From contig CP065011.1 in assembly GCA_016699795.1 (NCBI GenBank), positions 1,011,449 through 1,075,448 on the forward strand: a stretch of DNA of 64,000 bases, written 5' to 3'. Positions within the stretch are counted from its first letter, which is position 1. Every line of letters starts with the position of its first letter. The stretch comes from Candidatus Moraniibacteriota bacterium. GTDB taxonomy: Bacteria > Patescibacteriota > Minisyncoccia > Moranbacterales > GCA-2747515. The notes below the pieces were generated by a model. The model was not told the origin of the DNA, did not search any database, and saw only the letters and a list, made by a program, of their open reading frames with translations. Positions 273 to 539 of the stretch are shown piece by piece. The position numbers were made by a program, and so were the translations under genes.

Positions 273-510
273 AAGACTATTACAAGGTTCATCTTATGAG
301 GATTTTTATTATAATGACTGTCGGAATAACTAAGAATATAAGCGTTAAAAAAGATACGAAACAAAATTGCTCAAAACATTGTTTTGAAAACTGGTTTTCC
401 AGAGTAAATCTTTCTTTGATTACCTTATTCGGATGTAATGGTTAGTTGATAGGCTACCGACGATGACCCATGGACTCAGTTTGACACTGGATATATGACT
501 ATCAAAAAAC

Positions 511-539
511 TTGACGTAAAGCCATATTTTAGGTATATT
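511..539 (+). promoter_or_regulatory. sigma70-like promoter (TTGACG-17 nt-TATATT) upstream of the MKQLSTR gene; the same sequence recurs at 26273-26301 and 27420-27448
   Basis: The -35 and -10 hexamers have a 17-nt spacer, about 25 bp upstream of ATG 565. The whole leader is conserved at three loci. Confidence 0.5.

What the first reader, a model, noticed from the sequence alone, without database searches (positions are those of the whole stretch)
457..539. Promoter/leader of the MKQLSTR genes appears derived from an internal coding segment of the CARDB-like gene
The leader ccgacgatgacccatggactcagtttgacactggatatatgactatcaaaaaacttgacg (457-516; again at 27362-27425) resembles coding nt about 2299-2362 of the CARDB-like module (tccaatgatggtccttggactcagtttgatactgggtacattaccatttctaaacttgatg), encoding NDGPWTQFDTGYITISKLD. 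The present -35 TTGACG maps onto the codons for KLD. This implies a past recombination joining a gene fragment to a new gene start and co-opting it as a promoter.
Basis: seen in the sequence. Interest (0 to 1): 0.55.

Follow-up and report, generated by a model that had tools for sequence, protein, structure and literature searches.

The report
Gene relic abutting a family promoter
A 60-base leftover of a destroyed cell-wall-hydrolase gene sits directly upstream of the promoter of the next gene in a candidate-phylum bacterium; it is an ordinary deletion scar, and the promoter was very probably there before the scar.

Summary
Window 456-515 and 27365-27424 match the CARDB-like coding segment (2299-2358, 19084-19143, 29401-29460) at 44/60 bases ungapped, or 77% over 53-58 nt. 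The next best match in the window is 31/60, and no shuffle exceeds 35/60. The match is in frame (TDDDPWTQFDTGYMTI[E/K]KLD), and differences fall mostly on third codon positions (3:2:11).

The fragment is a relic of a diverged CARDB paralog. It always lies behind the 3' end and flank of a type-B MKQ gene, where intact modules carry a CHAP gene and a CARDB gene. Four further assemblies carry the full relic, two of them behind an intact type-B gene.

The co-option reading is not supported. TTGAC(A/G)-N17-TATATT occurs four times in the window, only before MKQ genes, including relic-free 17119. It also precedes four relic-free MKQ genes in relatives. Homology to the coding sequence ends inside TTGA, as expected for a short-homology deletion ending on an existing -35. 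A second junction nearby shares 9 nt.

The relic shows no sign of constraint, RNA structure or an open reading frame. It spread with the promoter and the first 120 nt of the gene by recombination among paralogs. Ordinary; low interest.

The parts
302..407 (+). Decaying 3' remnant of a type-B MKQ gene, ending in the stop TAA at 405-407 (copy 1)
   Evidence: 69.7% to 28086-28215. The last 50 nt are identical to the 3' end of the intact B-like gene in L010, and there is a 2-nt indel relative to L003.
408..444 (+). 3' flank of the type-B gene (copy 1). The 11 nt at 445-455 are of uncertain origin.
   Evidence: Homologous to 28194-28231, which follows the intact B gene.
456..515 (+). CARDB-gene relic, copy 1 (in frame TDDDPWTQFDTGYMTIKKLD, with an in-frame TAG two codons upstream)
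511..539 (+). Predicted sigma-70-type promoter TTGACG-N17-TATATT of the MKQ gene at 565. The -35 overlaps the last 5 nt of the relic.
565..1212 (+). MKQ type-A gene (IPN70_04715; TM anchor plus a weakly PsbP_2-like ectodomain)
1318..3237 (+). CHAP-CARDB peptidoglycan hydrolase gene. Segment 2299-2358 is the present-day homolog of the relic.
17067..17095 (+). Relic-free family promoter TTGACA-N17-TATATT of the MKQ type-B gene 17119-17838
18709..20022 (+). CARDB gene of module 2 (homologous segment 19084-19143), preceded by the CHAP gene 17963-18685
26262..26301 (+). Truncated relic (TATCGAAAAAC, 26262-26272) plus promoter TTGACG-N17-TATATT (26273-26301) of the MKQ type-C gene 26327-27022
   Evidence: The same junction occurs in L013-L021.
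27128..27232 (+). N-terminal stub (35 codons, signal peptide) of an M23-CARDB hydrolase gene. Its last 9 nt, CCATTGGAA (27225-27233), are shared with the B-gene tail it is joined to.
   Evidence: Homology to L001 2927-3131 at 86%; junction shown.
27225..27316 (+). Last 29 codons and stop of a type-B MKQ gene (copy 2), fused in frame to the stub above
   Evidence: 92% to 28102-28220 and 97% to L002 794-1042, where the B gene is intact.
27317..27353 (+). 3' flank of the type-B gene (copy 2)
27365..27424 (+). CARDB-gene relic, copy 2 (TDDDPWTQFDTGYMTIEKLD)
27420..27448 (+). Predicted promoter TTGACA-N17-TATATT of the MKQ type-B gene 27474-28193. It scores 11/12 to consensus, the best site in 26000-30600.
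27474..30339 (+). Intact module: MKQ-B (27474-28193), CHAP gene (28304-29002) and CARDB gene (29026-30339, homologous segment 29401-29460)
30392..30417 (+). Terminator-like hairpin closing the module. The same element occurs at 3290-3315.

Best explanation
The 60-nt segment is an inert relic of a diverged paralog of the hydrolase-associated CARDB genes. The genome is a Candidatus Moraniibacteriota MAG with IPN70 locus tags. It carries arrays of modules of the form [promoter - MKQ membrane-anchored protein - secreted CHAP or M23 peptidoglycan hydrolase with CARDB domains - terminator]. In one ancestral array a type-B MKQ gene was followed by a hydrolase/CARDB unit and then by the next MKQ gene. 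Two deletions, or one complex event, removed that hydrolase unit. One ran from about 38 nt after the type-B stop codon to CARDB codon ~125. The other ran from the K-L-D codons (~145) to the -35 hexamer of the next MKQ promoter. This second junction lies in the 4-5 nt (TTGA or TTGAC) that the two parents shared. As a result the relic appears to run into the -35. The promoter TTGACR-N17-TATATT is the ancestral MKQ-family promoter and drives the downstream gene as before. The relic merely occupies about -36 to -95. The composite of type-B tail, flank, relic, promoter and the first ~120 nt of the MKQ coding sequence was then duplicated. Homologous recombination or gene conversion within the conserved 5' coding segment placed it before MKQ genes of types A (565), B (27474) and, truncated, C (26327). 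Shown: the homology, the reading frame, the context, the independent copies and the relic-free family promoters. Inferred: the order of events, the deletion mechanism, promoter activity and the neutrality of the relic.
For: (1) Real in-frame homology with third-position-biased differences.

(2) Position. In every copy the relic follows the last codons and 3' flank of a type-B MKQ gene. In L002 and L010 that type-B gene is intact and is followed directly by flank, relic, promoter and a type-A MKQ gene. In intact modules the same flank leads into CHAP and CARDB genes (27474-30339; L003).

(3) A CARDB gene followed by an MKQ gene with its own TTGACA-N17-TATATT promoter exists undeleted in L001 (CARDB ends at 871, promoter at 1247) and in L010 (3722, 4260).

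(4) The promoter motif occurs exactly 4 times in 64 kb, against 0.02 expected, and always before MKQ genes. Five relic-free MKQ genes have it with unrelated spacers.

(5) Homology to the CDS ends in TTGA. The window, L010, L011 and L001 CDS all read GAT where the relic reads GAC.

(6) A neighbouring junction shows the same style of event. The M23-CARDB stub is joined to the type-B tail at the shared CCATTGGAA.

(7) The parent was a different paralog. The relic shares GAC GAT and TAC ATG ACT ATC G.A AAA with the L011/P0081/P0084 type, and TGG ACT CAG TTT GA. ACT with the window type.

(8) There is no sign of constraint on the relic. The seven variable sites among the five copies fall 3:2:2 by codon position, and five of the six changed codons alter the encoded amino acid. 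In the clean orthologous pair lead2/L003, the relic has 5/60 changes and the promoter plus UTR 0/54, Fisher p = 0.04. An in-frame TAG is conserved in all copies.

(9) No Rfam hit, an RNA fold z-score of +0.79, and no terminator in the leader.

(10) Recombination is visible. The first 90 nt of the gene at 27474 are closer to a type-A gene that carries the relic promoter (82/90) than to the gene's own type-B ortholog (68/90).
Against: No undeleted ancestor with this exact promoter spacer (TAAAGCCATATTTTAGG) was found, so the parental -35 is inferred from paralogs rather than observed.

A 4-5 nt microhomology is weak evidence on its own. The relic also uses GAC at three other Asp codons, so the C in TTGAC could have come from the parent gene.

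The non-coding block of flank, relic and promoter is more alike among copies (90-100%) than the adjacent 5' coding sequence (84-92%) or the type-B tails. I attribute this to gene conversion, but it could reflect function.

Two successive G-to-A changes (GGAAAAAC to GAAAAAC to AAAAAAC) lengthen an A-tract just upstream of the -35. All derivative junctions keep those 11 nt.

Promoter activity has not been measured.
Confidence: 0.74

Rival explanations
1. The fusion brought coding DNA next to a -10-like element, and the K-L-D codons (CTT GAT, then GAC) became the -35. On this view a coding fragment created, or replaced, the promoter of the MKQ gene.
For: The -35 aligns exactly with CTT GAT/C. The T-to-C difference improves the match to TTGACA, and all functional CDS versions have T there. 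The crossover cannot be placed more precisely than within TTGA(C), so the hexamer may be physically chimeric.
Against: Relic-free MKQ genes in this window and in three other assemblies already have TTGAC(A/G) at the same 17-nt spacing from the same TATATT. The hexamer therefore need not have been created. For a deletion to land by chance so that coding DNA supplies TTGA exactly 17 nt from a -10 is far less likely than a deletion guided by homology with an existing TTGAC.
Confidence: 0.1
2. The relic, or at least its last ~12 nt ATC(G/A)AAAAAC, has been exapted as an upstream promoter element. It could act as a UP-like A-tract or as a regulator binding site, and would be retained by selection.
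For: An A5-6 tract lies at about -37 to -43 and was lengthened by G-to-A changes. Every derivative of this promoter, including the truncated 26327/L013-L021 type, keeps these 11 nt. The whole non-coding block is 90-100% identical among copies.
Against: The truncated junction is a single inherited event, not independent retention. G-to-A drift is expected in a 34% GC genome. The relic accumulates more changes than the promoter in the orthologous comparison. Relic-free family promoters have T-rich rather than A-rich upstream DNA. The 26327-type promoter has lost 49 of the 60 relic bases.
Confidence: 0.1
3. The segment is still translated, either as part of a small or recoded ORF or as an exon-like part of a CARDB protein.
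For: It is in frame, and 15 of 20 codons are identical or synonymous.
Against: An in-frame TAG lies two codons upstream and is conserved in all five copies. A stop follows 13 codons downstream, inside the promoter/UTR. There is no start or ribosome-binding site. Substitutions among the copies are mostly non-synonymous. Long table-11 ORFs run throughout the window, which argues against recoding.
Confidence: 0.02
4. Chance similarity of AT-rich sequence, or an assembly chimera.
For: None beyond the short length.
Against: 44/60 against a shuffle maximum of 35/60, codon phase, a tblastn E of 2e-5, and five full copies in independent assemblies.
Confidence: 0.01

Closest known systems
Gene remnants (decaying pseudogene fragments) in bacterial intergenic spacers, as described for Buchnera, Rickettsia and prokaryotes in general (PMC3164680, PMC522871, PMC1779305; found)
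   Same: A short, start-less fragment of a once-functional gene, bounded by stops, lies between two intact genes. It is recognisable only by residual in-frame similarity to a paralog.
   Different: It arose by clean deletions inside a tandem array of paralogous modules rather than by slow erosion. It has then been copied to several loci together with the adjacent promoter. The host is a candidate-phyla-radiation bacterium with a 1.19-Mb genome, not an insect or intracellular symbiont.
Hybrid promoters formed when incoming DNA supplies a -35 to a resident -10, typically by insertion sequences (PMC9330008, PMC4803752)
   Same: A DNA junction falls at the -35/spacer boundary of a sigma-70-type promoter.
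   Different: In this case the resident promoter family already has the -35. The incoming DNA is a coding fragment left by a deletion, not a mobile element with an outward-facing hexamer. No activation of a silent gene is implied.
De novo promoter emergence from non-promoter sequence by one or a few mutations (PMC5906472, PMC13220856)
   Different: Comparative data show the hexamer is ancestral to the gene family, so de novo emergence need not be invoked.
Short-homology (illegitimate) deletion between direct repeats of a few bases.
   Same: One copy of a short shared sequence is retained at each junction: TTGA(C) at the relic/promoter junction and CCATTGGAA at the M23-stub/type-B-tail junction.
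   Different: The parental sequences are inferred from paralogs and relatives, not observed directly.

Membership tests
Gene relic / pseudogene fragment | Statistically significant homology to a functional coding sequence | tested here: met
   44/60 nt against a shuffle maximum of 35; blastn E 5.5e-4; tblastn E 2e-5
Gene relic / pseudogene fragment | Cannot encode the protein: truncated at both ends, with no start and bounded by stops | tested here: met
   About 20 of 437 codons remain. An in-frame TAG lies 2 codons upstream in all copies, and a stop lies 13 codons downstream.
Gene relic / pseudogene fragment | Signature of past coding constraint (differences concentrated at synonymous or third positions) | tested here: met
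   3:2:11 by codon position, p = 0.004, with 7 synonymous and 5 non-synonymous codons. Part of this signal could come from the functional lineage alone.
Gene relic / pseudogene fragment | Relaxed constraint after inactivation | tested here: inconclusive
   Variable sites among the 5 copies fall 3:2:2 and mostly change the amino acid. Fisher test against the 11/16 third-position bias gives p = 0.09. The relic has 5/60 changes against 0/54 for the promoter in lead2/L003, p = 0.04. The numbers are small.
Sigma-70-type promoter | -35 and -10 hexamers close to consensus with 17-nt spacing, upstream of the gene | tested here: met
   TTGAC(G/A)-N17-TATATT, 10-11 of 12 matches, 25 nt before the ATG
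Sigma-70-type promoter | Hexamers conserved across paralogs and orthologs while the spacer diverges | tested here: met
   The same hexamers and spacing occur with unrelated spacers at 17067, L002 110, L001 1247 and 2231, and L010 4260. The motif occurs 4 times in the window against 0.02 expected. TTTACA variants occur in L014-L021.
Sigma-70-type promoter | Mapped transcription start | not testable with these tools
   No transcript data are available for this uncultured organism.
Hybrid or co-opted promoter (-35 donated by the incoming DNA) | The recipient lacked a functional -35 before the fusion | tested here: not met
   Relic-free family members carry TTGAC(A/G) at the same position. The direct ancestor was not found.
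Short-homology deletion junction | A short sequence shared by both parents, with one copy kept at the junction | tested here: met
   The relic/promoter junction shares TTGA(C), read as AAACTTGAT in the CDS and as (T/A)TTGAC(A/G) in family promoters. The stub/type-B-tail junction shares CCATTGGAA, with at least TTGGAA shared with L001. The parents are inferred from homologs.
UP element | An A/T-rich tract at -38 to -59 that raises transcription through the RNA polymerase alpha subunit | tested here: inconclusive
   (G/A)AAAAAC lies directly 5' of the -35.
Known structured RNA leader (riboswitch, attenuator) | Match to an Rfam family, or a fold more stable than shuffles | tested here: not met
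   No Rfam match at gathering score or at E <= 1; z-score +0.79

The most novel reading that the evidence does not exclude
The relic is not inert. On this reading it is the upstream half of a portable ~290-nt expression and recombination cassette. The cassette comprises the last codons and flank of a type-B gene, the relic with its A-tract, a chimeric -35, the -10, the UTR and the first 120 nt encoding the MKQ membrane anchor. It would be kept nearly identical by gene conversion, and would let this candidate-phyla-radiation bacterium swap very different ectodomains (types A, B, C and others), each partnered with a secreted peptidoglycan hydrolase, behind one promoter. The coding-derived A-tract and -35 would contribute to promoter strength.
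Probability: 0.12. Interest if true: 0.45.

Novelty: new member of a known kind. Interest (0 to 1): 0.2.

Why it matters
As read here, it matters little for mechanism. It is a well-documented deletion scar. It shows that tandem arrays of MKQ plus peptidoglycan-hydrolase modules in a small Moraniibacteriota genome turn over by short-homology deletions, duplication and gene conversion. It also shows that such scars can travel with a promoter. It serves as a caution against reading a promoter origin into an alignment that ends at a -35 hexamer. The surrounding system may be more interesting than the relic. It is a family of membrane-anchored proteins with a near-identical promoter and anchor, hypervariable and weakly PsbP-like ectodomains, and a secreted CHAP or M23 hydrolase almost always next door.

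Tried and rejected
Searches that found nothing or failed:
- Two scans of JGI metagenome contigs, one for the degenerate relic motif CCNTGGACNCARTTYGAYACNGG and one for the exact promoter spacer TAAAGCCATATTTTAGGTATATT. Both returned nothing, so no undeleted ancestor was found there.
- The genome-contig scan gave a single relative, L001.
- Exact-protein look-ups failed for the gene at 27474 and for P0065 and P0071. I therefore could not read the DNA upstream of the window start directly, and inferred it from L002, which is 98% identical to window 1-408.

Negative tests on the leader:
- Rfam, at gathering score over the whole window and at E <= 1 on 27000-27600, found nothing.
- RNA folding of the leader is no better than shuffles.
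- There is no terminator between the type-B stop codon and the relic.

Inconclusive or uninformative:
- Extending the relic homology 5' of 27365, either through GTT AGT or through the MAFFT alignment. The result cannot be told from noise.
- Pfam on neighbouring genes gave no context relevant to the finding.
- One literature search was badly posed and uninformative.

Rejected ideas:
- Insertion of an MKQ cassette into a CARDB gene. No downstream half of a split CARDB gene follows the MKQ genes; a complete CHAP-CARDB gene does.
- Alternative genetic code. Long table-11 ORFs run throughout the window.

Full report
**1. Observation**

The two leader segments are present as described. Read in frame, 456-515 and 27365-27424 give ACC GAC GAT GAC CCA TGG ACT CAG TTT GAC ACT GGA TAT ATG ACT ATC (A/G)AA AAA CTT GAC. 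The CARDB-like genes at 2299-2358, 19084-19143 and 29401-29460 read TCC AAT GAT GGT CCT TGG ACT CAG TTT GAT ACT GGG TAC ATT ACC ATT TCT AAA CTT GAT.

- Identity is 44/60 ungapped, 41/53 in the blastn segment (E 5.5e-4, window against window) and 45/58 in the best local alignment.
- With the leader copies masked, the next best 60-mer match in the window is 31/60. The best match in each of 200 shuffles averaged 31.3 and never exceeded 35.
- tblastn of the CARDB protein hits both copies at 71% identity, E 2e-5.
- Differences fall 3:2:11 by codon position (p = 0.004). Seven of the twelve changed codons are synonymous.

The homology is therefore real and was shaped by coding constraint. The domain concerned is the first Ig-like domain of the protein. 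It is only weakly CARDB-like (E 0.004, below Pfam's cut-off). The second domain is a clear CARDB match.

**2. Organism and gene setting**

Two window proteins are identical to IPN70_04715 and IPN70_04825 of a Candidatus Moraniibacteriota MAG with a 1,186,598-bp contig. The window is 33.8% GC.

It holds four complete MKQLSTR genes, at 565, 17119, 26327 and 27474, and the 3' end of a fifth at 18-272.

- Their first ~40 codons (a membrane anchor) are 84-93% identical in DNA. The rest falls into unrelated or very divergent types, here called A, B and C.
- Each is followed by a secreted peptidoglycan hydrolase. These are a CHAP-CARDB fusion (1318-3237), or a CHAP gene plus a CARDB gene (17963-20022 and 28304-30339). 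The unit closes with a terminator-like hairpin at 3290-3315 or 30392-30417.
- The same pairing recurs in relatives L001, L003, L004, L006-L010 and L013-L016, sometimes with an M23 peptidase in place of CHAP.

**3. What flanks the relic**

In copy 2, 27225-27343 is 92% identical to 28102-28220. That stretch is the last 29 codons, the stop and the 3' flank of the intact type-B gene. Flank homology runs to about 27353. Twelve bases of unclear origin follow, and then the relic. Copy 1 has the same layout, with a more decayed type-B tail carrying a 2-nt indel relative to L003.

In the intact module the type-B flank leads into the CHAP and CARDB genes. The relic is thus what is left of a hydrolase unit that once followed a type-B gene.

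Two independent metagenome contigs show the intermediate state. L002 and L010 each have an intact type-B gene, then flank, relic and promoter, then a type-A gene. L002 1428-1837 is 98% identical to window 1-408. A third relic copy therefore very probably lies just upstream of the window start. L003 carries a further copy.

Upstream of copy 2, 27023-27232 is homologous to L001 2927-3131. That stretch is an intergenic region plus the first 35 codons of an M23-CARDB gene. It is joined to the type-B tail at a shared CCATTGGAA, which makes a chimeric 62-codon ORF. This is a second, clearer short-homology deletion in the same place.

**4. Source of the relic**

None of the three CARDB genes in the window is the parent. 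The relic shares the central TGG ACT CAG TTT GA. ACT with the window-type genes. It shares GAC GAT and TAC ATG ACT ATC G.A AAA with the L011/P0081 type. The residues D and M at those positions also occur in M23-CARDB homologs P0084, P0087 and P0089. The apparent triple change TCT to GAA is a single change from GGA in that lineage. The parent was a distinct, functional paralog.

**5. The promoter**

TTGAC(A/G)-N17-TATATT occurs exactly four times in the window, against 0.02 expected, each time 23-25 nt before an MKQ start codon.

The copy at 17067-17095 has no relic. Its upstream DNA is the 3' end of a membrane-protein gene and a GC-rich repeat. Relic-free MKQ genes in L002 (110), L001 (1247 and 2231) and L010 (4260) have the same hexamers and spacing with unrelated spacers. 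More distant members, L004 and L005, still have TTGAC(A/G). Conserved hexamers over divergent spacers are good comparative evidence for a sigma-70-type promoter that is older than the relic.

In L001 and L010 a CARDB gene is followed by such a promoter and an MKQ gene. This is the arrangement needed as the substrate for the second deletion.

Homology between the relic and the CDS ends inside TTGA. The four bases before it (AAAC) are CDS-like, whereas family promoters have T or A there. The bases after it are promoter-like. All functional CDS versions read GAT where the relic reads GAC. The parsimonious reading is a deletion endpoint within 4-5 shared bases. One caveat applies: the relic uses GAC for three other Asp codons, so the C could have come from the parent gene.

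**6. Is the relic doing anything?**

I found no Rfam match, no fold better than shuffles (z = +0.79), no terminator and no ORF. An in-frame TAG is conserved just upstream in all copies.

Among the five full copies, seven relic sites vary. They fall 3:2:2 by codon position, and five of the six changed codons alter the amino acid. In the orthologous pair lead2/L003, which is 96.2% identical over 1.6 kb, the relic differs at 5/60 sites and the promoter plus UTR at 0/54. The 26327-type promoter has lost all but 11 nt of the relic. It is nonetheless widespread in L013-L021, some with a TTTACA -35.

These points favour an inert passenger. Two things are not fully explained:
- The non-coding block is more uniform among copies than the adjacent coding DNA. 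I attribute this to gene conversion.
- An A-tract next to the -35 has been lengthened by G-to-A changes. This could be AT drift or a UP-like element.

**7. Spread**

The relic-type promoter sits before type-A genes (565; L002 1043; L010 696), type-B genes (27474; L003 284) and, truncated, a type-C gene (26327). Other type-B genes (17119; L002 166) keep a relic-free promoter. The first 90 nt of the gene at 27474 match the type-A gene of L002 at 82/90, but its own type-B ortholog at only 68/90. The promoter and 5' end are therefore exchanged among paralogs by recombination in the conserved anchor-coding segment, and the relic travels with them.

**8. Comparison and verdict**

This is a gene remnant in an intergenic spacer, a known kind of object (PMC3164680, PMC522871). 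Here it was produced by deletions in a modular array. It resembles IS-type hybrid promoters (PMC9330008) and de novo promoter birth (PMC5906472) only superficially. The defining condition, a recipient that lacked a -35, is not met.

Interest is low.

Side observation: an AlphaFold model of the type-B ectodomain (pLDDT 75) weakly resembles PsbP, DcrB and Eag-type folds. This agrees with a sub-threshold Pfam PsbP_2 hit for type A.

Noticed in passing
window 565-1212, 17119-17838, 26327-27022, 27474-28193; L001-L021: The MKQLSTR family has a near-identical promoter and first ~40 codons (membrane anchor) but unrelated or very divergent ectodomains (types A, B, C and more in P0064-P0078). The gene is almost always followed by a secreted CHAP or M23 peptidoglycan hydrolase, often with CARDB domains. 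The type-B ectodomain model is weakly PsbP/DcrB/Eag-like. This could be a partner or immunity-like pair under diversification. The function is unknown.
   Followed up: partly
window 27128-27316: A chimeric 62-codon ORF. The signal-peptide end of an M23-CARDB gene is fused in frame, at a shared CCATTGGAA, to the last 29 codons of a type-B MKQ gene.
   Followed up: partly
window 16262-16321, 16973-17020, 22869-22924 (-), 26179-26226; L013-L021 upstream regions: A GC-rich ~50-nt repeat (CTCTCCCTTTGCCAAAAGGGAGTAC...GGGGGAGGGATTTGTA) with an internal palindrome. One copy lies inside ORF 15616-16929 and the others are intergenic.
   Followed up: no
window 21690-21816, 22327-22432, 26049-26137: Fragments of the 3' end of the membrane-protein gene 15616-16929 recur at 86-91% identity. 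These are further relics in the same rearranged 16-30 kb region.
   Followed up: no
L014-L021, about 55 nt before the ATG of the P0069 gene: The -35 of the truncated-relic promoter reads TTTACA instead of TTGACA in most metagenome copies. L013 and the window have TTGAC(A/G).
   Followed up: no
window 59878-60142 and 60139-60403: A 265-bp direct tandem duplication at 98.9% identity inside the minus-strand ORF 59363-61348.
   Followed up: no
window 13087-13244 and 15362-15519: The adjacent large ORFs 11169-13346 and 13333-15609, neither with a Pfam hit, share 85% nucleotide identity near their 3' ends. They are probably tandem paralogs.
   Followed up: no
window 23206-24453, 24700-25281, 3693-4280: AAA_14/DUF4143 ATPase, AbiEi-like and DUF3800 genes lie between the hydrolase modules. 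The same ATPase precedes the MKQ gene in L013-L015.
   Followed up: no
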